Assembly (NCBI GenBank): GCA_016212185.1
Contig: JACRGX010000056.1
Span: forward strand, 31,240-95,239
Source: Nitrospirota bacterium
GTDB lineage: Bacteria > Nitrospirota > Thermodesulfovibrionia > UBA6902 > DSMQ01
Reading direction: 5' to 3'
DNA length: 64,000 nt
In this document: piece after piece, positions 1 to 38,886 of the stretch
How the letters are laid out: every line of letters starts with the position of its first letter
How positions within the stretch are numbered: the stretch's first letter is position 1
Position numbers and translations under genes: made by a program
Notes under the pieces: generated by a model
The model's input: the letters and a program-made list of their open reading frames with translations, nothing else
What the model was told of the DNA's origin: nothing
Database searches by the model: none

Positions 1-686
1 AGGATAACATTTATACAGAAAGTACATTTGTAACTGCACCCGATGCCGGTTATAATAGGATACACAAGGCAGTTTTTATATGCATCGCCATAAAAATCCT
101 CAACAGCTATTACATTATTTCTTGAATAACGTAGATGGTCTATCAAAGAAAAGTCCAAGGCAGGGATATTGCTGAGGTCATCTTTAACGGGGTTGGGGGG
201 GGTCTGTACTATTGAATGCTTCGCAGTCTTATAATATACTCCCGGAACTCCAGAGAGGTCCCCGCCTTCGGACAATGTCAAGCTTAGCGGGATAATCGTA
301 GCCGCCGCATCATTTACCACTACAATATCTACTGCCTTATCTTCAACGGTCTGCTCCGGGAAAAGTGTTGGGTGAACCCCTCCCCATACTATCACTGCAT
401 TGCTGTGTCTTTGCTTTATTGCCTGCGACACATGATATGCCCACGGCAGTTGCACAGTCATTACCGAAAAACCGACGAATATAACTCTTTCGTCAATTTC
501 TTTAAGAATAGAGTTTACAGCCTCATCAATCCTCTGATACCTGCCGTCAACCACAATGACTTGAAAACCTGCGTTATGGAGTATTGTTGCAAGAACCATT
601 ATTGCAGTATTCGGATAGGCGCCATATGACATAATCTCCTGAAAATGTGTGCCGGGGTTTACCAGAATTATCTTATTCTTCTTCAT
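1..686 (-). CDS. B12-binding radical SAM protein (N-terminal part; C-terminus lies beyond window start)
   Basis: Manual translation of minus strand from ATG at 684-686: MKKNKIILVNPG... Rossmann-like cobalamin-binding N-domain followed by GIGCSYKCTFC (CxxxCxxC). Open to position 1; not in ORF track because it runs off the window. Confidence 0.65.
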   Translation of the reverse strand, partial: MKKNKIILVNPGTHFQEIMSYGAYPNTAIMVLATILHNAGFQVIVVDGRYQRIDEAVNSILKEIDERVIFVGFSVMTVQLPWAYHVSQAIKQRHSNAVIVWGGVHPTLFPEQTVEDKAVDIVVVNDAAATIIPLSLTLSEGGDLSGVPGVYYKTAKHSIVQTPPNPVKDDLSNIPALDFSLIDHLRYSRNNVIAVEDFYGDAYKNCLVYPIITGIGCSYKCTFCINVI

Positions 687-2304
687 AGTATTTTCTGTGA
701 GTAAAAATTTTCATCTTAGATAAAAAAGTCTTTATAGTTAACTGCAACGCATAACCAATGCGTCCATGCCAGTAATACATTACAGCATAATCCTGTCTGT
801 TATGATTGCCTATATTCTGCTTGCAGCGTTCAATATCTTTTATGAAACTATACTCGCTGTAAAGTGATTCAATCAAATTCCTGCCCTCAGTTGTCATATT
901 GGATCTTATATAGCACCAGTAAAGCAACGGCACATAAGGCAGAAAAATCTCTCTGTTCATGCGCGGAGGATAATCGGCAAGCCATTCTCTTTCCATAGCC
1001 TGCAATTTCTCACCTCTTAAATATATCTTCCTGATCCAGAGGCTTTGCAGTATCCACTCCATATAACTGCCACGAAGCCATTTCTGCAGCAACAGGATAT
1101 CTTTAAGGTCAACCCTGCAGAGAAACAATTTTTCTATTTCATTTGAAAAAGGTATGCATGAAAATTTTTTATGTGCAAGTGACAATGCTTTTAAAGCCTG
1201 CGGCATACAGCCGGTAAACGCCCAAAAAATTGAGAGCAGTGACATTCTTTCCTCGGGTTTGTATAATTCTCCTTTATTCGCTATTTTCTTTATTCTGTCA
1301 AGGGTCTTCTCCAGCGCCAGTTCAGGGGAAACAGCAAGATGAGTTTTAAATATCGGGGCATAAACATCCATTTTTCTTTCTTCCACAATATGTAATATAT
1401 TTTTTATGTCCCCCCCGCTGTTTACTATCATATTGTCTAAAAGATTATGGAAAAATGTTTTCCTTCCCGCCGGCACTGCCACTACCGGCACATTTCTTTG
1501 CAGGGCATCTATAATCACCTGAGAGTTCCCACGGTTAAAAAGCACATCGGCAATGTCCAGAATATGATCTATGGGTGTATATTGATTTGCAATTTTTGCA
1601 TCAGGGGCATGCCTTTTTATAAATTCATAGATGTTTTTGTCCTGTTCGGCAGGATGGGGTTTAACAATAAGCTCATATCTCGCAGGCAGTCCTTTTGATA
1701 TGCACGCAAGCAGCTCTTTCCTGACTGCAGGAGTTTCTCCGCTTGGCGTCAGATATGCAAGACTCAGCACCGCTACGAGTTTGTTGTCGGATATCTTTAG
1801 TTCTTTTCTTAACGCTTCTTTCTTGTTTGAATCGGATGAATATAATTTTTTATACCTGAATACGCACCCAGTGGTTTCAACCACATCGCCGGGAACCCCT
1901 GTTTCAATAAACTTCTGCTGCTCATATTCCGACGCAACAAGCAAATGGTCAACAGGCAAAAAATATTCGTTTACAAAACCCTGCTCCAGCATCATCTGAA
2001 GTACCTCCTCAATTGCAATTACAGGAACTCCGAGCAGTGCAGCTTTCTGAATCAGATTGAGATGAGGCATTCTCGGTTGCGCTGAAAAGAGTATTAAAGC
2101 CTTTACATTGTCAAACAGCCCTTCCGGGGGATACCCGTCATTTAAAAAAAAGTTCCCGTTAATATGCCTTTTTTTATCAGAAAACCATTTAAGCTTAGGG
2201 TTATAAACACACTTTATATCCCATCCGGGCAGGAACTGCCTGAAGATTTCTATACTTCTATCGTGAACAATACTGACAGGATTAAAAAGAAGGGTATTCT
2301 TCAT
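673..2304 (-). CDS. TagF/Capsule_synth-like Rossmann-fold glycosyl- or phosphotransferase (putative)
   Basis: 543 aa ORF; motif LIVKPHPAEQ (KxHP-type motif of CDP-glycerol glycerophosphotransferase/capsule-synthesis families) followed by conserved C-terminal block; paralogous to 3 other ORFs in the locus. Confidence 0.4.
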   Translation of the reverse strand: MKNTLLFNPVSIVHDRSIEIFRQFLPGWDIKCVYNPKLKWFSDKKRHINGNFFLNDGYPPEGLFDNVKALILFSAQPRMPHLNLIQKAALLGVPVIAIEEVLQMMLEQGFVNEYFLPVDHLLVASEYEQQKFIETGVPGDVVETTGCVFRYKKLYSSDSNKKEALRKELKISDNKLVAVLSLAYLTPSGETPAVRKELLACISKGLPARYELIVKPHPAEQDKNIYEFIKRHAPDAKIANQYTPIDHILDIADVLFNRGNSQVIIDALQRNVPVVAVPAGRKTFFHNLLDNMIVNSGGDIKNILHIVEERKMDVYAPIFKTHLAVSPELALEKTLDRIKKIANKGELYKPEERMSLLSIFWAFTGCMPQALKALSLAHKKFSCIPFSNEIEKLFLCRVDLKDILLLQKWLRGSYMEWILQSLWIRKIYLRGEKLQAMEREWLADYPPRMNREIFLPYVPLLYWCYIRSNMTTEGRNLIESLYSEYSFIKDIERCKQNIGNHNRQDYAVMYYWHGRIGYALQLTIKTFLSKMKIFTHRKYYEEE

Positions 2305-3218
2305 TTAGCATTTTTCTTTAGATTATAATAAGCTGTATTTGTAGCGCCGACTTTAGAATTTTTTATCGTGGTGTATACCAGGACATCATCTCTTTTATGC
2401 AGCTGGTCGCATACATTACAAAAGGGAAACTTGTAAAAATTCCCTTCCTGGTGCGCCTGCCTGAACGCATTATACTCTTTGCTATGCAATACCTCGTGCA
2501 GAGTCTGTTTTTTAAAATCGCCTAAAACAATCTTGCTGTCATAATCAAAGCAGCAGGGAACCGCCAATCCGTCCCACTGCACCTGAACAGGCCCTGTAAA
2601 CGGACGGCCGCAGCTGGTTTTTTTCTCATCAAAGGGTCTGTATGTTCTTCCGTCTCCCCAGTTATGGGGCTTCCATACAGAAATGCCATCAGCTATTTCT
2701 TCATAACGCCTGAGAAAATCCTTCATCTCATGCTCATTTTCCGGCATTAATAAAAAATACATTTCTATCCTTAATTTACTGTTTTCCCTCCGGCGGGTCT
2801 CAAATAAATTCGCGACATTTTTACTGACATCTTCAAAAGACAGCCCTTTATGTATTCCTTCATAGGTTAACTTTGTTGTCCCGTACATGCTGATGCGTAT
2901 TTTATCAAACAGGTCTGCAACCTTTTCCGCCTTCTTTTCATCAAGAATGGAGCCGTTTGTTATGGTGTAAACCTCAAGTCCCTTTGATTTTGCATATTCA
3001 GCGCGCTCAAAGATATATGGATCCAGAAAGCTTTCCCCGTAATTTTCAAGCGAAACCAGCTTAGCCCCGCCGCCTACGGCTTCATCCAGAACTTTTTTAT
3101 AAAGGTTAAGGTCGAGGACGCCCTGGCGCCGTGTCATCCTCTCGCGCGGGCACATTATACATTTTGCATTACATTTGTTTGTTACTTCAAAACGTATTTC
3201 CGGGTTAATTAATTTCAT
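2301..3218 (-). CDS. radical SAM protein with C-terminal Cys-rich (SPASM/twitch-like) region
   Basis: N-terminal CNAKCIMCPRE (CxxxCxxC) radical SAM motif; C-terminal PCCFDYDS...CNVCDQ cysteine cluster. Confidence 0.7.
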   Translation of the reverse strand: MKLINPEIRFEVTNKCNAKCIMCPRERMTRRQGVLDLNLYKKVLDEAVGGGAKLVSLENYGESFLDPYIFERAEYAKSKGLEVYTITNGSILDEKKAEKVADLFDKIRISMYGTTKLTYEGIHKGLSFEDVSKNVANLFETRRRENSKLRIEMYFLLMPENEHEMKDFLRRYEEIADGISVWKPHNWGDGRTYRPFDEKKTSCGRPFTGPVQVQWDGLAVPCCFDYDSKIVLGDFKKQTLHEVLHSKEYNAFRQAHQEGNFYKFPFCNVCDQLHKRDDVLVYTTIKNSKVGATNTAYYNLKKNAK

Positions 3219-3278
3219 TTCAAATCCGCCTTTTCTTAGATTTATTTAAAAATACTATACAGCATTTTCATATTCCGG

Positions 3279-5189
3279 TTATTTTCTTATGAGCAGATCT
3301 TTGAAATAAGCGCTCAATTTTACTATTTCCTTATCATCAAAAACATGCTTTGCCCATACAGCTTCAGGCACTGTCCCATGAAAATGGTTTTTAATCAGCC
3401 AATTCAGCGCCCACGGGAAATTATCTGCCGAGTTCACATAATAGCATGAATCCGGCTCAGGCTTTGTCTCAGGAGCAAGTATCTGACATGGTATGTGGCA
3501 GTATTTACCTGTGGGATCATACTGCAAAACCGGAATTCTGTTTTGCAGGGCTTCTTCAATCGTTGTTGATGAGTAACTGACAAGCATGTCAGAGAGGGAC
3601 AGATACTCTTCAAACGACCCTTCGGTATGGATGTCGTAACAATCGGATTCAACCAATAAAGACTCTAAATCATTTTTTGATAAATAATCTTTCGGCCTGA
3701 ACCGGATAATTAAATGTAAATCACTAACTTTTTCCACAGCACTGATAAGTGAGTTCAGATTGCCGATATATTCATCCACTGTCTGATAAACATAAAATCT
3801 TAAATCATTATGCAGTCTGGGAGTATCGGCATGCAGTAGTATGATTTTATTTTCATACCCTCGAAGAAGTTTTTTTCTTAAAAGCACCCTCGTGTTTTCA
3901 TTTTTGTTAACCTTTGCAAAAAGTAGCGGACCTGTAATAATATGTGTGCTCCGTGTTGAAATCTCCTGAAGATATGCCCTTGCCCATGGAGATTGAACGG
4001 CAATATATTGATAGCGGGTATTCACTAAACCAAGACCGTGTTCCTTCCATTCCATCATCTCATACTGGTTTTTGGGAGGGACATGCGAACCATGTGAAAC
4101 CAGCAATGACGGTATATTATATAAAGAAGCGAGTTCACCGAGGTTATAATTCATAAACCTTGCCATCTGCGAAATAATAATTGCCGGTCTTAATTTCTTT
4201 AAAAACCCGTTTAGATGTAAGGTTTGATTATGTATATTAGAAATAGTGGAAACAATGTCGTCCCTGATTTTTTTAAATACTATCTCTTTAACGCTAATCC
4301 CTCTGTAGCTGAAAATTTCATCGCTGCCCGCTGATTCCCAAAGTCTTTGTACCGATTGATTTATTGTTTTTTTAAATCTTTTTTGTTTTTTGCCGCCAAT
4401 AACCGGCAAAGGGAAAAAAATATCTCCATCAGCCCTGAATAAAAAACTTAGTATTGAACTGGGATTTTTATCTGCCAAATAAAGCACACGGGCATCTGGC
4501 AATACCGGCATTAATTCATTGATGACCCTCTGAAAGTTATAACTCATTGACGGTGCAATAATAATTTGCCGGGCTTTAAGCAGACTGCTCATCGACAGTA
4601 TTAATTTATAGATAAGAAACTTACATAAATCAGAAGCATTTTTTTTAACCGCTCCGGCTGCCGGATTCCTGCTTATATGGACGCCCTGCATTAATTCATG
4701 TGCTATGCAGAGCTTTTCAGATATCCTCTTGCTGATAGTTCCTGCATATCCTTCGCTATCGGACAAATATGGATTAAGCGAATAGCTGCCGTCTCTTGAA
4801 AATGCGATTATTTGCTCAATATTCCAAAGTAAGCAGGCCCTGTAAATAATTTCAATAAGCCATAAAAAATAATGAATAAATGTTCTCAGGTAAAAGAGAA
4901 CGGTTATGTTATATCCCTGTGTTATTCTAAGTTCATCCTCTATCGTTAATAGAGATTCGCAGAATTTGTATATCTCATCCGATTTCAGTAATGCCTGTTC
5001 ATGCCCTTCTCTTCCAAAAAGTTCATAAGTGGTAAAAAAACGGATTCCATTGCGTTTTAACTGCAGTTGTGCCTCAGGGAGAATTGCAAGAACATAAGTG
5101 TCTTCCTTCCTTAGTTCCTCAATAGACCTCCGGGCGATGAAGGAATCTACTTCGTCTTTGAATTCAAATATGATAAGGGTTCTGCTCAA
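3279..5189 (-). CDS. hypothetical protein, TagF/Capsule_synth-like C-terminal domain
   Basis: 636 aa; C-terminal IIRFRPKDY...SYSSTTIEEAL pattern parallels KxHP paralogs 673-2304, 12548-14632, 14632-15678. Confidence 0.3.
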   Translation of the reverse strand: MSRTLIIFEFKDEVDSFIARRSIEELRKEDTYVLAILPEAQLQLKRNGIRFFTTYELFGREGHEQALLKSDEIYKFCESLLTIEDELRITQGYNITVLFYLRTFIHYFLWLIEIIYRACLLWNIEQIIAFSRDGSYSLNPYLSDSEGYAGTISKRISEKLCIAHELMQGVHISRNPAAGAVKKNASDLCKFLIYKLILSMSSLLKARQIIIAPSMSYNFQRVINELMPVLPDARVLYLADKNPSSILSFLFRADGDIFFPLPVIGGKKQKRFKKTINQSVQRLWESAGSDEIFSYRGISVKEIVFKKIRDDIVSTISNIHNQTLHLNGFLKKLRPAIIISQMARFMNYNLGELASLYNIPSLLVSHGSHVPPKNQYEMMEWKEHGLGLVNTRYQYIAVQSPWARAYLQEISTRSTHIITGPLLFAKVNKNENTRVLLRKKLLRGYENKIILLHADTPRLHNDLRFYVYQTVDEYIGNLNSLISAVEKVSDLHLIIRFRPKDYLSKNDLESLLVESDCYDIHTEGSFEEYLSLSDMLVSYSSTTIEEALQNRIPVLQYDPTGKYCHIPCQILAPETKPEPDSCYYVNSADNFPWALNWLIKNHFHGTVPEAVWAKHVFDDKEIVKLSAYFKDLLIRK

Positions 5190-5200: not shown

Positions 5201-6574
5201 CTAAACTGACTTCCCTGCCTGCCGGTCAGGCGGGTGAATCCAGAAATCAATAAGCCTTTCCGCCATTCTAAAGTCTTCTTCCTCTCTCACTTCAAGCGGC
5301 GAGTAAGGGTTGTTCACCGCGTAAATGCCTATTTTTTCGCCGAGCAGGGAGCCTTCGCGAATAAATTCAGGATGCGTGACTGAACACAGCCCTTTGATTC
5401 CGATAAATGAAGGTTCTTTGTATTTTCGCGGGATATCGCCTTTGTCTATTCTCTCAATTTTATTATCTTCCTGCTTCCATATAGACCTGTATTCGGTTCT
5501 GGCGGCAATAACGCTGTCCAGTCCTTCTTTAATTAATTGCTCTATTATGCTGTCTATGAGCTTTTTGGTCCTGAAAGGGAATGTCTCCTCAAGATAGACG
5601 ATAATATCAGGAAATATTTTTTGCTCTTCAAGCTTATTCAAAGAATACTGAAGCACCTTCTCAATATCAACAAAATCTCTTGAGAGCGCTTCATCTCTTA
5701 CAAACGGGGCGCTTGCTCCAAGAGTTTTTACAAGCTTTGCAAGCTCATGGTTATCCGTAGACACTATTACCTCTTTGATGTATTTTGATGCAAGCGCCTG
5801 TTCAATGGTATACCCTATAAGAGGCTTGCCTTTAAGATAATTAATCTTCCCCTTTACAGGTATAACAGCCATAATCCTGAGGTTTTTAATATCTACATGT
5901 ATATTGTTTTTTGTCTCCGGATTCAGCGATTCAAGTATATTCACCACACTTGCACACCTTTTCTTGTCTCCGCCCTGGTGAATGCCATGGTAGTGGTAAA
6001 CACTCGCATGAGGTTCATACACAATTACATATCCCTTTTGAAGCATTTTTTCCGCCCATATCCTGTCCTCAATATTCGCAGCCGTCTCGTCAAAAGGCAT
6101 CTCATTCCATGCTGATTTCCTTAGAATGCTGTTTGCATTGTGGAAAAAACTGTCTTTTTTCTGAACTCTCCGGTCCATGCCGAATATTATTGAGAGGTCT
6201 CTCTTATCTATATCCGGCGTATAGGCAAGCGGTTCCTGCCGTCCGTACACTCCAACCACTTTCGGGTCGTCAAAATTATTTAATAAACTTGACAGCCATT
6301 TTTCGTCAATAGGAATACAGTGGCCTGAAAGGCAGACAATATAATCTCCTCTGGATTCCCGTATCCCCATATTAAGGGCAAGCCCGGGTCTGTAGTCCTT
6401 GCACGTTATGACCTTTGCAATATTAAACTGCTGTGCCTTCTCAATTGTCTTGTCCGTGCTCTCATTATCAACTACAATAACTTCAAAATCAGTGAAATCC
6501 TGTTTGAATACCCCCATCAGACACGAGGTTATCCATCTTTCCTCATTTTTAGTCCTGATAATAATAGATACCAT
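5201..6574 (-). CDS. bifunctional GT2 glycosyltransferase / acylneuraminate-cytidylyltransferase-like protein
   Basis: N-term MVSIIIRTKNEERW...VVDNESTD (GT2 DxD region); C-term MAVIPVKGKINYLKGKPLIGYTIEQA... resembles CMP-NeuAc synthetase fold. Confidence 0.55.
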   Translation of the reverse strand: MVSIIIRTKNEERWITSCLMGVFKQDFTDFEVIVVDNESTDKTIEKAQQFNIAKVITCKDYRPGLALNMGIRESRGDYIVCLSGHCIPIDEKWLSSLLNNFDDPKVVGVYGRQEPLAYTPDIDKRDLSIIFGMDRRVQKKDSFFHNANSILRKSAWNEMPFDETAANIEDRIWAEKMLQKGYVIVYEPHASVYHYHGIHQGGDKKRCASVVNILESLNPETKNNIHVDIKNLRIMAVIPVKGKINYLKGKPLIGYTIEQALASKYIKEVIVSTDNHELAKLVKTLGASAPFVRDEALSRDFVDIEKVLQYSLNKLEEQKIFPDIIVYLEETFPFRTKKLIDSIIEQLIKEGLDSVIAARTEYRSIWKQEDNKIERIDKGDIPRKYKEPSFIGIKGLCSVTHPEFIREGSLLGEKIGIYAVNNPYSPLEVREEEDFRMAERLIDFWIHPPDRQAGKSV

Positions 6575-8666: not shown

Positions 8667-8668
8667 GT

Positions 8669-30323: not shown

Positions 30324-30329
30324 AATTTT

Positions 30330-31703: not shown

Positions 31704-31728
31704 CTAAAAACCGCCGTCTCTGGAGCTA

Positions 31729-32900: not shown

Positions 32901-33935
32901 TTAGCTGCCTGCTTTATCAATATTATTGTACGTCAATGGCTCTTCGCTATCTATATCCTTTTGGGCGATAAATGAGCTGACAGTATCAAAATCTTCAAAA
33001 GAGACACTGTTTGCAGGTACCGGTCTTAACCAGATGACGTCTGCGGCAGTTATTTTTTGTCCTTTACGGATATTGTATTTAGCATATGCACTGCGGCGCA
33101 GGTTTGTCCTTCCGTATTCCTCAGAGGGCTGGATTTTTCTCGGATAATCTCCCATCATTTTCTCCAGCCGCCTGATGTCCCTGATAAAGTCTGACATCTC
33201 CTTAGGCTCAAGTGAAAGCGCACGGTCCCCCCCGGGAATAGACCGGTCAAGAATAAAATGCTTCTCAATTACAACCGCCCCAGTTGCCACTGCAGCAAGC
33301 GGGGCAAGGGTGTCAGCAGTATGGTCGGAATATCCCACCGGCAACCCGTATCTTTGATTATAAAAAGGTATCAGAGACAGACCTGTTTCATTATCAGGGA
33401 CAGGATACGCGCCGATACAGTGAAGCAGAATTGACCCTTTTTTCGGGAGCATTTCAGCAAGCCTGTCTACCTCCTCCTGCTTGCAAAATCCGGTTGATAC
33501 GAGAACCGGCTTGCCTTTTGAAATAACGTGCCTAAGCAAAGGCAGATTATTTGCATCTCCTGATGCAACTTTGAACGCCGGTACAATATCATCAAGAAAA
33601 TCAGCGCTCTTTTCGTCAAAAGGGGTGCATAAAAATACCATGCCAATAGATTCCGCCTTCTGCGCCAATTCCCGGAAGACTCCTCCGGGAAGAACCATAC
33701 TTTTAAATCTCTCCCTTTGTGTGCCGTGTGATTTATCAGGCACATGTTTAAGCACCGGCGCATCTTTGCTTACAAGGAGCTCCGGGTCAAAAAGCTGGAA
33801 TTTAACGGCATCCGCCCCGCTTGCAGCCGCAGCTTCAAGGGTTTTCATGGCAAGCTCGGCATCGCCCAAATGATTGTTTCCGATTTCGGCAATTATAAAT
33901 GTCTTTCTGCCAATTTCAAAATTACCTATTTTCAT
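32901..33935 (-). CDS. nonulosonic acid synthase (N-acetylneuraminate synthase family, NeuB/PseI/LegI-like)
   Basis: FIIAEIGNNHLGDAELAMKTLEAAAASGADAVKFQ hallmark; C-terminal SAF-like domain. Confidence 0.9.
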   Translation of the reverse strand: MKIGNFEIGRKTFIIAEIGNNHLGDAELAMKTLEAAAASGADAVKFQLFDPELLVSKDAPVLKHVPDKSHGTQRERFKSMVLPGGVFRELAQKAESIGMVFLCTPFDEKSADFLDDIVPAFKVASGDANNLPLLRHVISKGKPVLVSTGFCKQEEVDRLAEMLPKKGSILLHCIGAYPVPDNETGLSLIPFYNQRYGLPVGYSDHTADTLAPLAAVATGAVVIEKHFILDRSIPGGDRALSLEPKEMSDFIRDIRRLEKMMGDYPRKIQPSEEYGRTNLRRSAYAKYNIRKGQKITAADVIWLRPVPANSVSFEDFDTVSSFIAQKDIDSEEPLTYNNIDKAGS

Positions 33936-33965: not shown

Positions 33966-35384
33966 TTACTTTTCATAAAGGTACTTATCTTTCGGTACCC
34001 TGTCCAAATATCCCTCTTTCATGATTTGAGAAGCCAGCCATATTGAAAATTCATTATTTACTACTTCAATGCTTTCATTCTGCGACAGCTCAATAAAACC
34101 GATGGAATTCCCGAGCCAGTCTTTTCCAAGCAGATTTTTTGTCTTAACAATTCGTATGCCGCCGGTCTCCAAATATAGGGTATCGCTGTCTTCCTTCATT
34201 ATCTTTCTGTCATACCCGAATGGCACCAGTCCGCTTGGTCCTGGTCTCCAGTAAAAGTCATAATGCTCCATAACTGAGATCACTGAGTCATAATCATGTA
34301 TCAACATTGTATCAATAGCCTCGGTCAGATGATAAGATTTTATAAAAGGACAGTTTATTGAAATCGTTGCCATTATGTCAGGCATGCTATGCCCCCTTTT
34401 ATCCATCTCTCTGACAAAGTAGCTCACAACTTCACCCCTTGTTACAGTCGGGCTTGCTAATCCCTTTGGGTGCAGTCCCAGCGACTTTGCTCCGTATTTT
34501 ACGGCAATCTCCTCTACTTCCTCATCATCGGTCAATATATAAACATCCTGCATATATTCACATTCCATTAATGCATTAAGGGAATAATTTATGAGCGGCA
34601 TGCCATTTATATCTGCAAGTGCAATCTTAGGAATGCCCGATTTCTTAAGAAAAACTGATTCGCGAATCAATCCAATAACCTTCCTGTCTGCCCCAACTTT
34701 TTCTCTGACAAATTCGTGCTTGACATGCCTGCGCGCCATTGACCGTTTCTCTGAGTTTGTTGACATAGTTCCTTCATGTCTGCGGTAATACATAAGCGGC
34801 AGCCTTACATTATAGACATTGAACCTGTTGATAAAACGGAGCCAGAAGTCATAATCCTCCTGATATTTTAGTTCCTCATTATAACCGCCGATTTCGTCAT
34901 AGCACTGTTTCCTGTACATAGCCCCTGCGCCTAATGGAGCCCTGTCCAGGAGTTTGATCTCATCATTGCTCTTCATCAGCCTGTAATGCTCTATAATATT
35001 GCCGGAGTAGTCAACTTTAAAATAGTCCGAATAGACAAGGTGGACCTCTGGCTTAGAGTCCAGTATCCGGCTTTCAACCAATAAGGCATTTTCATCAAAG
35101 TAGTCATCGGCGTCCAGCCTTATGATGTATTGCCCCCTTGACTCCCTGATTGCAGCGTTGCATGCAGCAGCCAGCCCCACGCCTTTAAGTCTGACGACCC
35201 TGACTTTAGGATGTTTAGTATATTTTTCAAGAACTTCATCCGTATGGTCGGTGCTGCCGTCTTCAGCTATGATAAGTTCAAACTCCTGGCATGTCTGGTT
35301 TAGTACGCTATCTATTGCCTGCCCCAGAAACTTTGCATAATTATGCGCTGTCAGTATTACGCTTATTTTTGGTTTGTCACTCAT
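33966..35384 (-). CDS. bifunctional GT2 glycosyltransferase / cytidylyltransferase-like protein
   Basis: ISVILTAHNYAKFL...IIAEDGSTDHT (GT2) then C-terminal CMP-sugar synthetase-like domain. Confidence 0.55.
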   Translation of the reverse strand: MSDKPKISVILTAHNYAKFLGQAIDSVLNQTCQEFELIIAEDGSTDHTDEVLEKYTKHPKVRVVRLKGVGLAAACNAAIRESRGQYIIRLDADDYFDENALLVESRILDSKPEVHLVYSDYFKVDYSGNIIEHYRLMKSNDEIKLLDRAPLGAGAMYRKQCYDEIGGYNEELKYQEDYDFWLRFINRFNVYNVRLPLMYYRRHEGTMSTNSEKRSMARRHVKHEFVREKVGADRKVIGLIRESVFLKKSGIPKIALADINGMPLINYSLNALMECEYMQDVYILTDDEEVEEIAVKYGAKSLGLHPKGLASPTVTRGEVVSYFVREMDKRGHSMPDIMATISINCPFIKSYHLTEAIDTMLIHDYDSVISVMEHYDFYWRPGPSGLVPFGYDRKIMKEDSDTLYLETGGIRIVKTKNLLGKDWLGNSIGFIELSQNESIEVVNNEFSIWLASQIMKEGYLDRVPKDKYLYEK

Positions 35385-35394: not shown

Positions 35395-36393
35395 CTATTT
35401 ACTGTTCTTGAAATATTTAAATGTTTTTTTCAGCCCGGATTTCAGGTCATGTTCCGGTTCAAACCCAAGGATATTTTTTGCCTTTGAAATATCTGCAAAG
35501 TTTCTCTTTACATCACCGGGTCTCTGTTCTGAATAAATAATATTCACATCCCTGCCGGTTTCTTTCTTCACAATTTCCTTTATTGCCTCCGCAATCTCAT
35601 TTACCGTGGTCTCCTTATGCGTAGCGATCTGGAAGACCTCGCCTCCTATGTCAGCCTTCACAGAAAGCATAATAGCATTAATTAGGTCCTCAATAAATAT
35701 AAAATCCCTTGTCTGTTCCCCATTGCCGTAAATCTCAATGCGCTCCCCGGCAAGCGCATTTTTAAAGAATTTTGCCACCACACTGTTTTTATTTTTTGAC
35801 AGATGGCCGTAAACGTTGCTGAATCTGAGGGCTATTGTTTTCACGCCGAAGGTCCTGAAATAGGCTGAACAGTATGCCTCACCTGCAAGTTTGCTTGCAC
35901 CGTATGGTGATACCGGTCTTGGCGCCTTATCCTCATGAACAGGCGGAACAACATCACCCAGCGGGGCCCCGGAAGAGGCAAAAATAAACTTTTTTATGCC
36001 CTGCCGCCTTGATGCTTCCAGCATATTTAATGTTCCAATGACATTTGCCTCCATATCTGCCCTTGGATTTTCAACAGACTGCGGGACGCCCGTGCTTGCC
36101 GCAAGATGGACAACAACATCTACCGAACTGCAGCAACGAATGCAGGCCTCAGGGTTTCTGATGTCGCCGATGACGAGTTCAAGCCCTTCAGGGCGGCCTT
36201 TAAGTGACAATACATCTTTCTCTATAAAAGGTCCGGCTCCTGACAGTGCATCCCTGCTTCCTGAAGAAAGATTATCAAGTATTCTTATATTAACACCCGG
36301 GACTTCTTTCAGCAGTCTGTATATTAATGTGCTTCCTATAAATCCGCAGCCGCCGGTTATAAGCCATGACCGGGCATCTAAAAGTTCAGTCAA
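35395..36393 (-). CDS. NAD-dependent epimerase/dehydratase (UDP-sugar 4-epimerase/decarboxylase-like)
   Basis: ITGGCGFIGSTL, YGASK catalytic YxxxK. Confidence 0.8.
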   Translation of the reverse strand: MTELLDARSWLITGGCGFIGSTLIYRLLKEVPGVNIRILDNLSSGSRDALSGAGPFIEKDVLSLKGRPEGLELVIGDIRNPEACIRCCSSVDVVVHLAASTGVPQSVENPRADMEANVIGTLNMLEASRRQGIKKFIFASSGAPLGDVVPPVHEDKAPRPVSPYGASKLAGEAYCSAYFRTFGVKTIALRFSNVYGHLSKNKNSVVAKFFKNALAGERIEIYGNGEQTRDFIFIEDLINAIMLSVKADIGGEVFQIATHKETTVNEIAEAIKEIVKKETGRDVNIIYSEQRPGDVKRNFADISKAKNILGFEPEHDLKSGLKKTFKYFKNSK

Positions 36394-36405: not shown

Positions 36406-37596
36406 CTATTTACCATTAATGAAGTCGCACCTTACCCTCTTCCCGTCCCAGCGGATGTCAGGTATGAGAGCCTCTTTGCGCGCCTCTATTCTGTTTTTGT
36501 ACTTTATAAGGTCCTTTAACATAATGCCGATTTCATGCTCAATATCATGGGTTGGTTTATATCCAAGGTCAAGAAGGCGCTGATGGTCCGGTTTAAAATA
36601 ATGCTCTTCAAGCTCCTTCCTCGGATTAATCAGATTTCTGATCTGAACATCCAGCCCAAAACTATCGCCGACTTTTTTTACCTTCCCGGCGAGTTCAGTA
36701 ATGTCATAAACCTCCTCAAACTGGTTAAACACTCTGTACTCACCGGCTCCAGGAGGATTCTCAACAGTAATCGCCAAACATTGCATTGAGTCCCTCAAAG
36801 GGAGAAAACCCCTTTTCTGATGTCCCTTGCCATAAGGAGACAGAGGATGCCCTATTACCGCCTCACAGCAAAAACGGTTAATAGCCGTACCAAAGCTCTG
36901 GTCAAAATCCAGTCTGGTCAGCAAACGTTCGTCATCGCCCATCTCGTCAATACGCGTTCCGAATACCACACCCTGCATAATATCCGTTGAGCGCAGGTTC
37001 CATATTCTGCACGCCATCATAACATTGTTGCTGTCATGGACCTTGCTCTGATGATACCAGCTACCGGCCTGTTTTGGAAAAGGCAGGTAATCCTTCCTAC
37101 CCCTGAACTCTACTTCAAAGAATCCCTCGGGAATATCAATTTTAGGCGTCCCATATTCTCCCATGGTCCCCAGTTTAACCAGATGGGACTCAGGACATAT
37201 GTCACGCATGGCATAAAGTATATTAAGGGTCCCAACAATATTATTTACCTGTGTCCATGTGGCGTGTTCAACGTCAATCATGCTGTATGGAGCAGACGGC
37301 ATCTCCCCAAGATGTACTATTGCCTCCGGTTTAAAATGCCTGAAAATATTCTCAATAAAATTATATTCCGTAAGGTTCCCCTTGAAAAACCTTAGGTTCT
37401 TTCCGAAGTTCTCGCGAAAAGCCTCAAGCCTCTCCGTCATTTTACATATAGGGGTTGCAGACTGAGACCCCATCTCTTGTACCCAGTCCCTTCTTAAATA
37501 ATTATCCGCTCCAGAAACCTCATGCCCCCTTTTAGTCAAATACATTGCAAGCGCCCAGCCCAGATAACCGTCAATTCCAGCGATAAAGACTCTCAA
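36406..37596 (-). CDS. UDP-sulfoquinovose synthase homologue (SQD1/SqdB/Agl3-like)
   Basis: Long colinear similarity to plant SQD1 recalled from memory: IAGIDGYLGWA, SAPYSMID, VKLGTMGEYGTP, PKQAGSWYHQSKVHD, DQSFGTAINRFC, GHPLSPYGKGHQKRGFL, FRVFNQFEE. Confidence 0.75.
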   Translation of the reverse strand: MRVFIAGIDGYLGWALAMYLTKRGHEVSGADNYLRRDWVQEMGSQSATPICKMTERLEAFRENFGKNLRFFKGNLTEYNFIENIFRHFKPEAIVHLGEMPSAPYSMIDVEHATWTQVNNIVGTLNILYAMRDICPESHLVKLGTMGEYGTPKIDIPEGFFEVEFRGRKDYLPFPKQAGSWYHQSKVHDSNNVMMACRIWNLRSTDIMQGVVFGTRIDEMGDDERLLTRLDFDQSFGTAINRFCCEAVIGHPLSPYGKGHQKRGFLPLRDSMQCLAITVENPPGAGEYRVFNQFEEVYDITELAGKVKKVGDSFGLDVQIRNLINPRKELEEHYFKPDHQRLLDLGYKPTHDIEHEIGIMLKDLIKYKNRIEARKEALIPDIRWDGKRVRCDFINGK

Positions 37597-37759
37597 ATCA
37601 TCTCCCCCTTTAATTATAATTTATACATATATATTTGCCTTTTTGAAGACTGCTCCGCCCTTTCAGTCACATCTAAGCAACCGGCAGAGTTAAGAGTTAA
37701 AAGTTAATTTTTTCTTTTTTGCACTATAACTCTTAACTTATAACTTTCAACTTTTAACT
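37597..37759 (-). promoter_or_regulatory. leader between NusG paralog and first biosynthetic gene with repeated AACT(T/C)TTAACT motifs, T-tract and inverted repeat
   Basis: gagttaagagttaaaagttaattttttctttttt ... aactcttaacttataactttcaacttttaacttta; position matches where NusG-paralog-dependent antitermination leaders occur. Confidence 0.35.
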
Positions 37760-38281
37760 TTATACTCTCTCAACATTAGCCGCTTCTATCTTTACCGCCA
37801 CTCCCTGACGGAGAATATCAACCGAAAGCACCAGCATATGCTGTCCCAGTTTTTCAACGAGTATTCCCTCAACACCGCTCAGGGAGCCGTATTTAATCCT
37901 TACCCTTTGCCCTTCTTGCAGATATGGATAAGGGTCCAGCGTTTCCTTGCTTTCAATAAGTTTTTTAAGCGATATTATTTGTTCGTCAGGGATAGGCTCA
38001 GGCTCTCCGCGTCCTGCGCCGAGGAGCCGCACCACTCCCTTAATCCGGACCACATTTAATATATCCTGCGACCTTTTTGTTGTATAAACAAATATGTACC
38101 CCGGGAACAGGGGAAATGTAACTGCTTTTTTCCTGTCCTTCCATTTTCTGAGCCGCTCCACTGCAGGCAGAAAAGCCTCAATGCCTTTCATTTTAAGCCT
38201 GTCATACACCTGAAATTCATGACGGGACCTTGTATGGACCGCATACCAGTTCTGTTCTGCATTTGCCGTTAGTTCCATCAT
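37760..38281 (-). CDS. NusG-paralog transcription antiterminator (UpxY/LoaP/RfaH-like)
   Basis: NGN domain WYAVHTRSRHEF..LPGYIFV plus C-terminal KOW (GQRVRIKYGSLSGVEGILVEK). Confidence 0.8.
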   Translation of the reverse strand: MMELTANAEQNWYAVHTRSRHEFQVYDRLKMKGIEAFLPAVERLRKWKDRKKAVTFPLFPGYIFVYTTKRSQDILNVVRIKGVVRLLGAGRGEPEPIPDEQIISLKKLIESKETLDPYPYLQEGQRVRIKYGSLSGVEGILVEKLGQHMLVLSVDILRQGVAVKIEAANVERV

Positions 38282-38886
38282 CCCTCTTTAGAAAGCAAAA
38301 ATAATTTTTTTGTATCTGCACCCATATCCATAGCCCTCTGCCTTTCGTTTTCCTTGTCTTTTAAGGATGTAATCAAAATGGCGTCATAATTTAAGCCGGC
38401 TAAATCCTGCGGGGCATAAATGTTATGCCCGAAAAAACCGTTGTCCGCCCTTTTATTGTCAATTATTCCAATCAGATTAAGCGGCAAGCCCCGCAGGGAA
38501 ACATAACATAATTCCGCAACTTCCCCGTCGCCCCATAACAGGAGGTTTTTTGCCCCTGATGAAATCATCTGTTTATAGACATTGTCTATTCTCTGGCGGA
38601 TGTCCTTGAAATAACTCAGGGAGAAATGCATATATTCATAGGTCAATCTTACCTTCTCTGTAAAACCTTTGGGGGTAAGGATATATTTGACCCTGTTTTG
38701 CGGGATAGTGGTAACCTTTATATACCCTTTTTTAGCCAGCCGCTTCATGTAGGCATTCACAAGCCCAAGGGCAACATCAAGCTTGCCCGATAGAGAGCGC
38801 TGTGTGACATGAGGCTCTTTGCTTAATTCGTCAAGGATTCTTAGTGTAATATCATCATCATGCCTGTCAGTCTTAAGCTTGTTCAT
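38278..38886 (-). CDS. Rex-like winged-helix transcriptional regulator with C-terminal Rossmann/CoA-binding-type domain
   Basis: N-term wHTH RLAKKGYIKV resembles Rex ALGKKGYGY; C-term LLLWGDGEVA...LIGIIDNKRADNGFFGHNIYAP...DAILITS parallels Rex NADH-binding domain layout. Overlaps nusG-paralog start by 4 nt. Confidence 0.45.
   Translation of the reverse strand: MNKLKTDRHDDDITLRILDELSKEPHVTQRSLSGKLDVALGLVNAYMKRLAKKGYIKVTTIPQNRVKYILTPKGFTEKVRLTYEYMHFSLSYFKDIRQRIDNVYKQMISSGAKNLLLWGDGEVAELCYVSLRGLPLNLIGIIDNKRADNGFFGHNIYAPQDLAGLNYDAILITSLKDKENERQRAMDMGADTKKLFLLSKEG

What the first reader, a model, noticed from the sequence alone, without database searches (positions are those of the whole stretch)
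1..38886. 38-kb single-strand glycan super-operon headed by its own NusG paralogue
About 35 consecutive minus-strand genes with minimal spacers begin with a Rex-like regulator and a NusG-paralog antiterminator (37760-38281). They encode a complete nonulosonic-acid toolkit: NeuB-family synthase, aminotransferase, oxidoreductases, GNAT, amidotransferase and four CMP-sugar synthetase domains. The block also contains an SQD1 homologue, five radical SAM enzymes, three class I methyltransferases, four TagF-like transferases, a Wzx flippase, a polyprenyl-phosphate GT2 and a large GT-C-like membrane protein. The combination, especially nonulosonic acid with B12-radical SAM and sulfosugar genes, does not match any characterised pseudaminic, legionaminic or sialic acid locus I know. 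It suggests a new hyper-modified ulosonic-acid glycan (capsule, S-layer or flagellin glycan).
Basis: partly seen in the sequence, partly recalled or inferred. Interest (0 to 1): 0.85.

Follow-up and report, generated by a model that had tools for sequence, protein, structure and literature searches.

The report
Giant antiterminator-headed surface-sugar operon, Nitrospirota
An uncultured Nitrospirota bacterium carries a gene block of at least 48 kb, all on one strand, for a sialic-acid-like surface sugar; known enzyme families make up most of it, but a rare conserved set of sugar-tailoring enzymes and a newly recognised control site make it an unusual variant of a familiar kind of locus.

Summary
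The block is real. The window holds 32 complete minus-strand genes and one truncated at the left edge. An identical contig adds 10 more same-strand genes, so the block is at least 48.7 kb.

- a NusG paralogue of the UpxY family
- a NeuB-family synthase
- four CTP_transf_3 domains
- an SQD1/Agl3-like synthase with its catalytic residues intact
- five radical SAM enzymes, three of them B12-binding
- three methyltransferases, a Wzx flippase and a polyprenyl-phosphate GT2

Two labels fail. The "Rex-like" regulator is a MarR-type EPS regulator, and "TagF-like" holds only at GT-B fold level.

New findings:
- A conserved 24-nt ops-like site (GCGGAGC core) lies between the NusG paralogue and the first enzyme gene, and recurs in 10 related loci.
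- A palindromic operator overlaps the promoter.
- Genes g03-g21 form a core that recurs in about 8 uncultured lineages.
- Inside that core is an 8-gene cassette built around a CsbB/YfhO-type GT2 + GT-C pair. Its GT-C family has only about 10 full-length members among 1.8 billion representative proteins.

The product cannot be deduced from sequence. I rate it a new variant of a known kind, of moderate interest.

The parts
38896..38924 (-). Sigma-70-like promoter P1: TTGACA, 17-nt spacer, TATCAT
   Evidence: Matches 11 of 12 consensus positions. The same layout is conserved upstream of g01 homologues in L008, L009 and L011.
38881..38895 (-). Perfect 15-nt palindrome GTTCATA-A-TATGAAC over the predicted transcription start and the ATG of g01. 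Candidate autoregulatory operator; the mRNA would be leaderless or nearly so.
   Evidence: Read directly from the sequence. Conserved in L008 and L009, and as GTTCATATTATGAAC in L011. Operator function is inferred.
38278..38886 (-). g01: MarR-type winged-helix regulator (EPS-associated type) with a ~95-aa Rossmann-like C-terminal tail; not Rex
   Evidence: HTH_24 50.1 bits; MarR_EPS TIGR04176 70.6 bits against a cutoff of 88; no Rex hit. Paired with g02 in L008, L009 and L011.
37760..38281 (-). g02: specialised NusG paralogue of the UpxY family, a candidate processive antiterminator
   Evidence: Pfam NusG 79.8 bits. NF033644 UpxY 139.8 bits, above the cutoff of 100. RfaH 83 bits and LoaP 75 bits, both below cutoff. 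Matches PDB RfaH/NusG chains.
37686..37759 (-). AT-rich inverted repeat built of AAGTTA-type heptads, just after the g02 stop codon. It contains the promoter-like site P2 (TTGAAA, 16-nt spacer, TATAGT; 37750-37723).
   Evidence: (fold z = -2.4). A hairpin at the same place in L008, and one with a different sequence in L009. Function unknown.
37649..37672 (-). ops-like element ATGTGACTGAAAGGGCGGAGCAGT (core GCG-G-AGC); candidate recruitment and pause site for g02
   Evidence: Unique in the window: PWM score 40.6 against a next best of 6.5. There are 11 strong sites in 10 loci, all on the strand of the NusG paralogue, and none elsewhere in 426 kb. The core fits the E. coli GCGGTAGC and Bacteroides YGCGNAGCR sites. 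No conserved RNA fold.
36406..37596 (-). g03: UDP-sulfoquinovose synthase homologue (SQD1/Agl3 type)
   Evidence: NF041015 567 bits against a cutoff of 575, full-length match. Agl3 residues T144, E147, Y148 and YHxxK are kept.
35395..36393 (-). g04: extended SDR acting on a nucleotide sugar. It resembles a 4-epimerase: motif ASSGAPLGD, with no Asp-Glu dehydratase dyad.
33966..35384 (-). g05: GT2 glycosyltransferase fused to a partial CTP_transf_3-like domain
   Evidence: The fusion family is widespread, with at least 1409 hits across many phyla.
32901..33935 (-). g06: NeuB-family nonulosonic acid synthase with a SAF domain
   Evidence: PF03102 236.8 bits. NeuB_NnaB 280 bits (cutoff 400) and PseI 236 bits (cutoff 340), so the subtype is unresolved.
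29784..32874 (-). g07-g09: WbuX-type N-acetyl-sugar amidotransferase, GatA-like amidase and GNAT. Proposed module for acetamidino formation and N-acylation.
   Evidence: WbuX 335.7 bits, above the cutoff of 203; Amidase 233.5 bits; GNAT 79 bits. The three genes stay together in L004 and L056.
28920..29738 (-). g10: stand-alone cytidylyltransferase (CTP_transf_3; KdsB/NeuA class)
   Evidence: 106.2 bits. Found next to the cassette in 5 other loci.
26433..28898 (-). g11: 821-aa GT-C-fold membrane glycosyltransferase; rare family distantly related to YfhO
17985..26427 (-). g12-g18, the tailoring part of the cassette: B12-rSAM, rSAM-SPASM, double-SDR fusion with a C-terminal TM helix, B12-rSAM, methyltransferase with a TM helix, PgfS/ArnC-like polyprenyl-phosphate GT2, methyltransferase
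   Evidence: All seven travel with g11 in the independent loci L002/L006, L003, L004, L007, L055, L056 and L057.
14632..17939 (-). g19-g21: GFO/IDH/MocA oxidoreductase, DegT aminotransferase and a 348-aa GT-B-like protein with an RPHP motif. g21 may be an NDP-sugar hydrolase/2-epimerase or a transferase.
   Evidence: g21 versus the g32 family by hhalign: probability 91%, E = 1e-6. Conserved in L004, L007, L055 and L056.
12548..14632 (-). g22: 694-aa protein of unknown family with an N-terminal TM helix
   Evidence: No hits. Homologues of 26-30% identity in L003 and L057.
11172..12518 (-). g23: Wzx-type flippase
   Evidence: Polysacc_synt 61.6 bits; 8 or more TM segments.
7590..11145 (-). g24-g27: class I methyltransferase, YhcH/NanQ-like protein, GFO/IDH/MocA oxidoreductase and Ldh_2-family dehydrogenase
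   Evidence: YhcH family 122.8 bits, above the cutoff of 45.5; Ldh_2 320 bits.
5201..7434 (-). g28-g29: second stand-alone cytidylyltransferase (closest to PseF) and a second GT2 + CTP_transf_3 fusion, flanked by 155-nt and 140-nt spacers
673..5189 (-). g30-g32: 636-aa unknown protein (weak GT-B-like signal), rSAM-SPASM, and a 543-aa GT-B-fold protein with an invariant KPHP motif and a helical C-terminal domain. g32 is a candidate CMP-sugar transferase.
   Evidence: Weak hits (E ~0.005) to the BFO_1060 family of T. forsythia Pse/Leg transferases.
1..686 (-). g33: N-terminal 228 aa of a 523-aa B12-binding radical SAM protein, cut by the window edge. The block continues beyond it.
   Evidence: Window 1-6600 is identical to contig L005. 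L005 continues with 10 more same-strand genes: SDRs, RmlA-like, RmlC-like, GT2s, DegT, FemAB-like and a deacetylase.

Best explanation
This is a chromosomal surface-glycan biosynthesis operon of an uncultured Nitrospirota bacterium. It has at least 43 co-directional genes over at least 48.7 kb.

CONTROL
- A promoter overlapped by a palindromic operator drives a MarR-type regulator (g01) and a UpxY-family specialised NusG paralogue (g02).
- RNA polymerase reaches the first enzyme gene either by reading through g02 or from a second promoter in the 163-nt spacer.
- On the way it crosses a conserved ops-like site with a GCG-G-AGC core.
- There the paralogue is proposed to load onto the paused polymerase and make it resistant to termination across the long operon, as RfaH and UpxY do.

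ENZYMES
1. A NeuB-family synthase with its feeder enzymes: SDR, oxidoreductase, DegT aminotransferase, GNAT and a GT-B-like hydrolase/epimerase candidate. A WbuX amidotransferase and an amidase accompany them. Together these would give a di-N-acylated, acetamidino-bearing nonulosonic acid, which cytidylyltransferases then activate as a CMP-sugar.
2. A UDP-sulfoquinovose synthase.
3. A rare 8-gene cassette. A polyprenyl-phosphate GT2 loads a sugar on a lipid carrier. Two B12-radical SAM enzymes, a SPASM radical SAM enzyme, two methyltransferases and a membrane-anchored double SDR tailor a sugar. A YfhO-related GT-C enzyme transfers it to the glycan on the outer face of the inner membrane. This is the logic of the CsbB/YfhO, GtrABC and ArnC/ArnT systems.
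4. GT2 and GT-B transferases and a Wzx flippase.

SHOWN VERSUS INFERRED
- Shown: family and fold assignments, gene order, and conservation of the cis elements and the cassette.
- Inferred: antitermination activity, which sugar each enzyme acts on, the order of steps, and the acceptor.
For: - Gene order and spacing. No intergenic terminator-like sites.
- Family assignments.
- g02 scores above the UpxY cutoff.
- The ops-like motif is unique in the window. It occurs in 10 loci, always on the strand of the paralogue and before the first sugar-nucleotide gene. It is absent from the rest of 426 kb.
- The known recruitment sites have the same core: GCGGTAGC in E. coli and YGCGNAGCR in Bacteroides.
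- NusG paralogues encoded inside long polysaccharide operons are an established pattern.
- g11 has a GT-C fold, and its only distant sequence relatives are YfhO proteins.
- g17's best match is PgfS, E = 2.5e-83, and it has two C-terminal TM helices.
- In L056 a GtrA-family flippase sits beside the GT2.
- Published three-component systems use the same parts.
- The cassette and the NulO genes co-occur in about 8 lineages.
- g03 keeps the Agl3 catalytic residues.
- The flanks are housekeeping genes and include BamD, so the host has an outer membrane.
Against: - There are no transcript data.
- Three spacers of 140-163 nt carry promoter-like hexamers, so internal promoters are possible.
- Every NulO enzyme scores below the Pse, Leg and Neu equivalog cutoffs, and no clear 4,6-dehydratase is identified.
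- No initiating phosphoglycosyltransferase, Wzy, WaaL, oligosaccharyltransferase or export genes lie in the part seen. The glycan class and the acceptor are therefore unknown.
- The window has no GtrA-type flippase.
- The best named matches of the B12-rSAM enzymes are HpnJ and BchE (190-197 bits, cutoffs 480-580). Their chemistry cannot be assigned.
- In Bacteroides the ops site lies upstream of upxY. Here it lies downstream of the paralogue gene.
- No UpxZ partner is present.
Confidence: 0.65

Rival explanations
1. The block is a mosaic of several independently transcribed glycan pathways that merely share a strand. A conserved NulO-plus-cassette core (g03-g21) would be followed by a variable region (g22 onward, including dTDP-sugar genes beyond the window) that makes a different product such as an O-antigen. 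It would then be neither a single operon nor a single glycan.
For: - g03-g21 recur in other loci, but g22-g32 do not.
- Spacers of 155, 140 and 60 nt with promoter-like hexamers lie in the distal part.
- The downstream genes on L005 look like a separate deoxy-sugar set: RmlA-like, RmlC-like, DegT and GT2s.
- Homologues of the regulator pair head unrelated gene sets elsewhere.
Against: - All genes share one strand, there are nine overlaps, and most spacers are 45 nt or less.
- No terminator-like hairpin lies in any spacer.
- A processive antiterminator at the head is the usual way to transcribe such a length.
- The distal part again carries cytidylyltransferases and candidate CMP-sugar transferases, which ties it to the NulO chemistry.
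Confidence: 0.2
2. The g11-g18 cassette modifies a membrane lipid, such as a hopanoid, an ether lipid or a polyprenol, rather than a sugar of the glycan.
For: - The best named matches of both B12-rSAM proteins are HpnJ. There are also hits to lipid-biosynthesis B12-rSAM and tetraether synthase models.
- The double SDR carries a NAD_binding_4 (fatty-acyl reductase type) signal.
Against: - All of these matches are far below the family cutoffs.
- The cassette always includes a PgfS/ArnC-type GT2 and a GT-C transferase, and always sits among NulO and sugar-nucleotide genes.
- No isoprenoid or fatty-acid genes are nearby.
Confidence: 0.08
3. The locus is a flagellin glycosylation island that decorates flagellin with a Pse/Leg-type sugar.
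For: A NeuB-family synthase, cytidylyltransferases and acetamidino-forming enzymes are typical of such islands.
Against: - The window and L005 contain no Maf-type transferase, flagellin gene or flagellar gene.
- A Wzx flippase, a polyprenyl-phosphate GT2 and a GT-C enzyme point to lipid-carrier assembly across the membrane, whereas flagellin glycosylation is cytoplasmic.
Confidence: 0.04

Closest known systems
Bacteroides capsular polysaccharide operons controlled by UpxY, and RfaH/ops-controlled polysaccharide operons of Proteobacteria
   Same: - A specialised NusG paralogue is encoded at the head of a long polysaccharide operon.
- g02 passes the UpxY-family model.
- A conserved DNA element with a GCG-N-AGC core lies in the leader of the biosynthetic genes.

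   Different: - The phylum is Nitrospirota.
- The partner is a MarR-type regulator, not UpxZ.
- The paralogue is the second gene.
- The ops-like site lies downstream of the paralogue gene rather than upstream of it.
- There is no invertible promoter.
- The extended motif TGTGACTGARAG upstream of the core has no counterpart that I know of.
Pseudaminic, legionaminic and neuraminic acid loci (pse, leg/ptm, neu), including the T. forsythia Pse5Am7Gra/Leg O-glycan locus
   Same: - NeuB-family condensing enzyme.
- DegT aminotransferase and GNAT.
- CTP_transf_3 cytidylyltransferases.
- An acetamidino-forming amidotransferase.
- GT-B proteins with an HP motif, as in the T. forsythia NulO transferases.

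   Different: - Every enzyme scores below the Pse, Leg and Neu equivalog cutoffs.
- No PseB/LegB-class dehydratase is recognisable.
- An amidase replaces the usual HisH/HisF-like ammonia donor for WbuX (own knowledge).
- The locus also carries five radical SAM enzymes, an SQD1 homologue and a GT2 + GT-C pair. No paper in the searched library reports these in NulO loci.
Multi-component transmembrane glycosylation systems: CsbB/GtcA/YfhO, PgfS/PgfM, GtrABC and ArnC/ArnT
   Same: - A membrane-anchored GT2 that makes a polyprenyl-phosphate sugar, paired with a GT-C-fold transferase.
- The only distant sequence relatives of g11 are YfhO proteins.
- The best match of g17 is PgfS.
- A GtrA-type flippase is present in the related locus L056.

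   Different: - The GT-C protein fails the YfhO model itself and belongs to a tiny separate family.
- The pair is embedded with two B12-rSAM enzymes, one SPASM rSAM enzyme, two methyltransferases and a double SDR.
- The window itself has no GtrA.
UDP-sulfoquinovose synthases SQD1, SqdB and Agl3
   Same: Full-length match of 567 bits, with residues Thr144, Glu147, Tyr148 and Tyr-x3-Lys conserved.
   Different: - The score is just under the curated cutoff of 575.
- The gene lies in a bacterial glycan operon, with no SQDG-lipid glycosyltransferase of the SqdX/SqdD type (own knowledge of that pathway).
- Sulfoquinovose in a protein-linked glycan is documented for archaeal N-glycans.

Membership tests
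UpxY-family specialised NusG paralogue (NusG-SP) operon control | NGN domain, and a whole-protein match to the UpxY family model above its curated cutoff | tested here: met
   PF02357 79.8 bits. NF033644 139.8 bits against a cutoff of 100, covering residues 12-168 of 173. RfaH, LoaP and housekeeping NusG models all score below their cutoffs.
UpxY-family specialised NusG paralogue (NusG-SP) operon control | Encoded inside, or at the head of, the long operon it controls | tested here: met
   It is the second gene of the co-directional block. Homologues sit before sugar-nucleotide genes in L008, L009, L012, L013 and L033.
UpxY-family specialised NusG paralogue (NusG-SP) operon control | ops/opsX-type recruitment element (GCG..AGC non-template hairpin) in the transcribed leader | tested here: met
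   GGCGGAGC lies within a 24-nt motif conserved in 10 loci; compare. Only sequence presence is tested, not function.
UpxY-family specialised NusG paralogue (NusG-SP) operon control | Adjacent UpxZ trans-inhibitor | tested here: not met
   The neighbours are a MarR-type regulator and an SQD1 homologue. The NCBIfam scans give no UpxZ-type hit.
UpxY-family specialised NusG paralogue (NusG-SP) operon control | Antitermination or anti-pausing activity on RNA polymerase | not testable with these tools
   Needs in vitro transcription or genetics.
Nonulosonic acid (Pse/Leg/Neu) biosynthesis locus | NeuB-family PEP-condensing synthase | tested here: met
   PF03102 236.8 bits plus a SAF domain. The subtype is unresolved: NeuB_NnaB 280 bits (cutoff 400) and PseI 236 bits (cutoff 340).
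Nonulosonic acid (Pse/Leg/Neu) biosynthesis locus | CMP-NulO synthetase | tested here: inconclusive
   CTP_transf_3 scores of 106 and 88 bits pass the Pfam threshold. PseF reaches 88 bits (cutoff 206) and the KdsB models 80 bits (cutoffs 193-255), so the substrate is not assignable.
Nonulosonic acid (Pse/Leg/Neu) biosynthesis locus | PseB/LegB-class NDP-HexNAc 4,6-dehydratase | tested here: not met
   g04 scores 85 bits for PseB (cutoff 408) and 150 bits for LegB (cutoff 475). Its motif ASSGAPLGD lacks the Asp-Glu dyad. The SQD1-like g03 could supply 4-keto-5,6-ene chemistry, but that is an inference.
Nonulosonic acid (Pse/Leg/Neu) biosynthesis locus | PseC/LegC aminotransferase, PseH/LegH N-acetyltransferase and PseG/LegG/NeuC hydrolase or 2-epimerase | tested here: inconclusive
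   - DegT 291.8 bits, but PseC 221 bits (cutoff 424).
- GNAT versus PseH: 55.5 bits (cutoff 93).
- g21 is only GT-B-like: Epimerase_2 E = 0.021; hhalign to the g32 family, probability 91%.

CsbB/YfhO-, GtrABC- and ArnC/ArnT-type polyprenyl-phosphate-sugar glycosylation | Membrane-anchored GT2 that makes a polyprenyl-phosphate sugar | tested here: inconclusive
   g17 matches PgfS at 279.8 bits (E = 2.5e-83, cutoff 500) and ArnC at 179 bits (cutoff 529). It has two C-terminal TM helices. The class is clear but no equivalog is reached.
CsbB/YfhO-, GtrABC- and ArnC/ArnT-type polyprenyl-phosphate-sugar glycosylation | GT-C-fold transferase with conserved acidic residues in the first external loop | tested here: met
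CsbB/YfhO-, GtrABC- and ArnC/ArnT-type polyprenyl-phosphate-sugar glycosylation | Small GtrA- or ArnE/F-type flippase | tested here: not met
   None in the window, whose only flippase is the Wzx protein g23. GtrA_DPMS_TM is present beside the GT2 in L056. Wzx-type flippases are proposed for some systems of this kind.
UDP-sulfoquinovose synthase (SQD1/SqdB/Agl3) | Family model match and catalytic residues | tested here: inconclusive
   567 bits against a cutoff of 575, 8 bits short. All Agl3 residues named in PMC4388408 are present. Sulfite use cannot be tested here.
TagF-like CDP-glycerol glycerophosphotransferases (Pfam Glyphos_transf) | Match to PF04464 | tested here: not met
   Only g21 matches, at E = 0.025 and 14 bits (cutoff 22). 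g22, g30 and g32 give no hit. The g32 model is GT-B, with TagF at rank 6 among GT4 enzymes and 2-epimerases of similar score.
Rex redox-sensing repressor | Match to Rex family models | tested here: not met
   g01 has no Rex hit in Pfam, NCBIfam or the PDB sequences. Its best matches are MarR_EPS and FabT.

The most novel reading that the evidence does not exclude
The conserved 8-gene cassette may build a heavily tailored sugar, possibly the nonulosonic acid itself, on a polyprenyl-phosphate carrier. The tailoring would include C-methylation by B12-radical SAM enzymes. A previously unrecognised YfhO-related GT-C family would then transfer the sugar on the periplasmic face. That would be the first lipid-carrier route for a sialic-acid-like sugar and the first radical-SAM-modified NulO.

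Separately, the ops-like site would show that recognition of a GCG-N-AGC non-template hairpin by NusG paralogues extends to a further phylum beyond Proteobacteria and Bacteroidota.
Probability: 0.12. Interest if true: 0.8.

Novelty: new variant of a known kind. Interest (0 to 1): 0.5.

Why it matters
- NulO chemistry: nonulosonic acids shape how bacterial surfaces are recognised, yet the known chemistry comes almost entirely from pathogens. This locus ties a NeuB-type pathway to a rare, conserved tailoring and transfer cassette: B12-radical SAM enzymes, a SPASM radical SAM enzyme, methyltransferases, a double SDR, a GT2 and a new GT-C family. The cassette is found in uncultured Nitrospirota, Magnetococcales and other lineages. 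It points to NulO-associated sugar chemistry that has not been described.
- Expression target: the core is a defined set of about 20 genes that could be expressed in another host.
- Transcription: the locus pairs a specialised NusG paralogue with its candidate DNA recruitment site in a phylum where none has been studied. That gives a simple test of how old and how general ops-type recruitment is.

Tried and rejected
- Rfam (gathering thresholds) and ARAGORN found nothing in the window.
- PDB sequence searches with g11, g22, g30 and g32 gave nothing significant.
- An exact-sequence look-up of the housekeeping GpsA, meant to name the organism, found nothing. The source was identified through the NCBI names of g11 and g32 instead.
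- 'Rex-like' and 'TagF-like' were tested and not supported as family memberships.
- An RNA-structure reading of the ops-like region was tested by consensus folding of 10 loci. The energy was -0.31 kcal/mol with no compensatory pairs, so the element is treated as a sequence (DNA) motif.
- The AT-rich hairpin after g02 is not followed by a U-run, so it is not an intrinsic terminator.
- g22 and g30 could not be linked convincingly to the g32 family (E = 0.085 and 0.019).
- The scan of 185,579 species genomes found only two loci with a g11 relative.
- Literature searches combining NulO terms with radical SAM or B12, and GT-C with radical SAM, returned nothing relevant.
- The AFDB50 fold library was unavailable.
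- The composition profile shows no sign of a foreign island.

Full report
OBSERVATION

The window carries 32 complete minus-strand ORFs from 38886 down to 673. A 33rd starts at 686 and encodes the first 228 aa of a B12-binding radical SAM protein that runs off the left edge. Of the 31 junctions, 27 are 45 nt or shorter or overlap; the rest are 163, 155, 140 and 60 nt. Terminator-like hairpins are no more frequent than in shuffled sequence, and none lies in a spacer inside the block. The only intergenic one (38962-38939) sits upstream of the promoter, after a small lipoprotein-like ORF.

A Logan contig, L005, is identical to window 1-6600. It continues with 10 more same-strand genes: the rest of the B12-rSAM, SDRs, an RmlA-like and an RmlC-like gene, two GT2s, a DegT, a FemAB-like acyltransferase and a polysaccharide deacetylase. 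The contig ends there.

The source is a MAG named 'Nitrospirae bacterium', with locus tags HZA10_06040 to HZA10_06145 on a 133-kb contig. The flanks are housekeeping genes (NadE, GlnRS, GluRS, SerA, PurA, BamD), and composition is unremarkable.

Most labels hold at family level:
- a NusG paralogue, a NeuB+SAF synthase and a DegT aminotransferase
- two GFO/IDH/MocA oxidoreductases and a GNAT
- a WbuX-type amidotransferase plus an amidase
- four CTP_transf_3 matches, two of them partial domains behind GT2 domains
- three class I methyltransferases and a Wzx flippase
- a PgfS/ArnC-like GT2 with two C-terminal TM helices
- five radical SAM proteins

The SQD1 homologue scores 567 bits against a cutoff of 575. 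It keeps Thr144, Glu147, Tyr148 and the Tyr-His-x-x-Lys motif described for Agl3.

Two labels fail:
- 'Rex-like'. The regulator is a MarR/HTH_24 winged-helix protein closest to the EPS-associated MarR model, with no Rex hit. Only its layout, a winged helix followed by a short Rossmann-like tail, recalls Rex.
- 'TagF-like'. This is not supported by Pfam (E = 0.025, one protein only). The modelled g32 (pLDDT 90) has a GT-B domain followed by a 250-aa helical domain. It matches GT4 enzymes, UDP-GlcNAc 2-epimerases and TagF about equally well. g21 is related to the g32 family and shares a (K/R)PHP motif. g22 and g30 stay unassigned. Weak hits of g30 and g32 to the BFO_1060 family, the Tannerella Pse/Leg transferases with an HP motif, make a CMP-sugar transferase role plausible but unproven.

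CONTROL REGION

The paralogue g02 passes the UpxY-family model (139.8 bits, cutoff 100) and fails the RfaH, LoaP and housekeeping NusG models. I fetched 47 metagenomic loci that encode relatives of g02. The MarR-like gene accompanies it in the closest ones, but the downstream sugar genes differ, so the regulator pair is a portable operon head.

Two conserved cis elements emerged.

1. Promoter and palindrome. The promoter TTGACA-17-TATCAT (38924-38896) is followed at once by a perfect palindrome, GTTCATA-A-TATGAAC (38895-38881). The palindrome spans the predicted transcription start and the ATG of g01. This layout is kept in L008, L009 and L011, although g01 identity falls to 49%. I read it as an autoregulatory operator on a leaderless or nearly leaderless mRNA. 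That reading is an inference.

2. The ops-like motif. The 163-nt spacer between g02 and g03 contains ATGTGACTGAAAGGGCGGAGCAGT (37672-37649).
- A weight matrix built from seven sites finds 11 strong sites in 10 loci. All lie on the strand of the paralogue, usually just before the first sugar-nucleotide gene.
- In L028 the site lies in the leader of the paralogue gene itself.
- Nothing comparable occurs elsewhere in 426 kb, and the next best score in the window is 6.5 against 40.6.
- A more distant locus, L021, has the variant GCGAAGC.
- The core GCG-N-AGC is the one reported for the non-template DNA hairpins that recruit RfaH (GCGGTAGC) and Bacteroides UpxY (YGCGNAGCR).
- Consensus folding of the 10 loci gives no conserved RNA structure. 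This favours DNA recognition over a LoaP-like RNA hairpin.

An AT-rich heptad inverted repeat directly after the g02 stop codon includes a second promoter-like site (37750-37723). A hairpin is kept at the same position in L008, and with a different sequence in L009. Its role is unknown.

NusG paralogues encoded within long polysaccharide operons are a known pattern. The architecture is therefore not new, but this phylum, this partner regulator and this motif have not been described, as far as I could find.

THE CONSERVED CORE AND THE CASSETTE

The GT-C protein g11 belongs to a very small family.
- There are 12 proteins among 5.8 billion and two loci among 185,579 species genomes.
- An exhaustive profile search of 1.84 billion representatives found about 10 full-length members plus fragments. 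After those the scores drop sharply.
- The distant hits beyond the drop are all Pfam YfhO proteins.

YfhO is the GT-C partner of the GT2 CsbB in the multi-component transmembrane glycosylation systems. In those systems a GT2 makes a C55-P-sugar, a GtrA-type or sometimes Wzx-type flippase moves it across the membrane, and the GT-C enzyme transfers it outside the membrane.

In every independent locus that carries g11, the same partners appear in varying order: two B12-rSAM enzymes, a SPASM rSAM enzyme, a roughly 565-aa double SDR with a C-terminal TM helix, a TM-anchored methyltransferase, the polyprenyl-phosphate GT2 and a second methyltransferase. L004 shows only one B12-rSAM in the stretch fetched. 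These loci are two Magnetococcales MAGs, an unclassified MAG and five metagenome contigs, with g11 identity of 32-50%.

The neighbours of the cassette in these loci are also repeatedly the same as in the window: the g10-type cytidylyltransferase, the WbuX/amidase/GNAT trio, the GFO/IDH-DegT-g21 trio, g04- and g05-type genes, and NeuB. NeuB lies directly beside the GT-C gene in L055. L055 also has an SQD1 homologue, and L056 has a GtrA-family gene beside the GT2. Thus g03-g21 form a conserved core, while g22-g32 have no counterparts in the other loci.

MOST LIKELY FUNCTION

The operon makes a surface glycan that contains a di-N-acylated, acetamidino-bearing nonulosonic acid and probably sulfoquinovose. 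It is decorated on the outer face of the inner membrane with a tailored sugar. That sugar is delivered on a polyprenyl-phosphate carrier by a CsbB/YfhO-like pair.

The family and fold assignments and the co-occurrence are shown. Which sugar the radical SAM enzymes, methyltransferases and SDRs act on is not shown, nor are the NulO stereochemistry and the acceptor. Four limits apply:
- All NulO enzymes score below the Pse, Leg and Neu equivalog cutoffs.
- The only candidate dehydratase, g04, looks like an epimerase.
- The best named matches of the B12-rSAM enzymes (HpnJ, BchE, P-methyltransferases) are far below cutoff.
- No initiating transferase, polymerase, ligase or export gene lies in the part seen.

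RIVALS

- Mosaic of separately transcribed pathways (about 0.2). Supporting it are the core/variable split and the three longer spacers. Against it are the uniform strand, the overlaps, the absence of spacer terminators and the antiterminator at the head.
- Lipid-modifying role for the cassette (about 0.08). This rests only on sub-threshold name matches.
- Flagellin glycosylation island (about 0.04). There are no Maf or flagellar genes, and lipid-carrier machinery is present.

NOVELTY AND INTEREST

Each building block belongs to a known family or fold, and the overall kind, a NusG-paralogue-controlled glycan operon with NulO genes, is known. Three things are new:
- the conserved association of NulO genes with a rare rSAM/MT/SDR/GT2/GT-C cassette
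- a tiny GT-C family distantly related to YfhO
- an ops-like site and a MarR-type partner for a UpxY-family paralogue in Nitrospirota

Literature searches found nothing that links NulO loci with radical SAM or B12 enzymes. The GT2 + cytidylyltransferase-like fusion, by contrast, is common in environmental genomes and not special to this locus.

I rate it a new variant of a known kind, with interest of about 0.5. The organism is uncultured, so the chemistry can only be reached by expressing the genes in another host.

Noticed in passing
window 1-686 (-); L005 5985-15804: The gene block does not end at the window edge. A fifth radical SAM gene is cut there, and 10 more same-strand glycan genes follow on an identical contig. 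They include RmlA-like, RmlC-like, DegT, FemAB-like, deacetylase and GT2 genes.
   Followed up: yes
window 38881-38924 (-); L008 ~970-1012, L009 ~5280-5322, L011 ~5330-5372: A conserved promoter is followed by a perfect 15-nt palindrome, GTTCATAATATGAAC, that overlaps the start codon of the MarR-type regulator. It looks like an autoregulatory operator on a leaderless or nearly leaderless mRNA.
   Followed up: partly
window 37649-37672 (-); L008 2198-2227, L009 6624-6653, L012 2851-2880, L013 1629-1658 and 3162-3191, L015 7038-7067, L019 935-964, L028 5931-5960: A 24-nt ops-like motif, ATGTGACTGARAGGGCGGAGC, is conserved next to homologous NusG paralogues. L013 carries two copies, each after a MarR-like gene. 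In L028 the motif lies upstream of the paralogue gene instead of downstream.
   Followed up: yes
window 37686-37759 (-): An AT-rich inverted repeat made of AAGTTA-type heptads lies directly after the NusG-paralogue stop codon. A hairpin is kept at this position in L008, and with a different sequence in L009. It is not followed by a U-run. Its function is unknown.
   Followed up: partly
window 38948-39202 (-): A small 84-aa ORF with a lipoprotein-like signal sequence (…FIFSCAPK…) lies between nadE and the operon promoter. A terminator-like hairpin follows it at 38962-38939.
   Followed up: no
window 33966-35384 and 5201-6574 (-): The GT2 domain fused to a partial cytidylyltransferase-like domain belongs to a large uncharacterised family. 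It has at least 1409 hits in Omnitrophota, Nitrospirota, Alphaproteobacteria including Magnetospirillum, Planctomycetota, Elusimicrobiota and DPANN archaea.
   Followed up: partly
window 673-2304 (-): The g32 family has 67 members with no Pfam domain, mostly from Omnitrophota, Elusimicrobiota and Chloroflexota MAGs. It combines a GT-B domain carrying an invariant K-x-H-P motif with a 250-aa all-helical C-terminal domain.
   Followed up: partly
window 7590-10349 (-): A YhcH/NanQ-like protein, a GFO/IDH/MocA oxidoreductase and an Ldh_2-family dehydrogenase sit together in a biosynthetic operon. From my own knowledge, the first two families are otherwise known from sialic-acid catabolism (nan) clusters. 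They might interconvert ring or keto forms of the NulO.
   Followed up: no
window 45251-47882 (-): LarC (nickel insertion) and a LarB-like AIR-carboxylase-family gene lie next to a zeta-toxin/AAA_33-type kinase. No LarA is seen in the window.
   Followed up: no
window 48981-52209 (-): Two class I Glu/Gln-type tRNA synthetase genes lie side by side. By domain content one is GlnRS-like and the other GluRS-like.
   Followed up: no
L003 16894-20464; L057 18858-22244: In two related cassette loci, a pair of large ABC-transporter proteins follows the cassette. In L003 they precede NeuB. The window has a Wzx flippase instead, which suggests an alternative export or flipping route.
   Followed up: no
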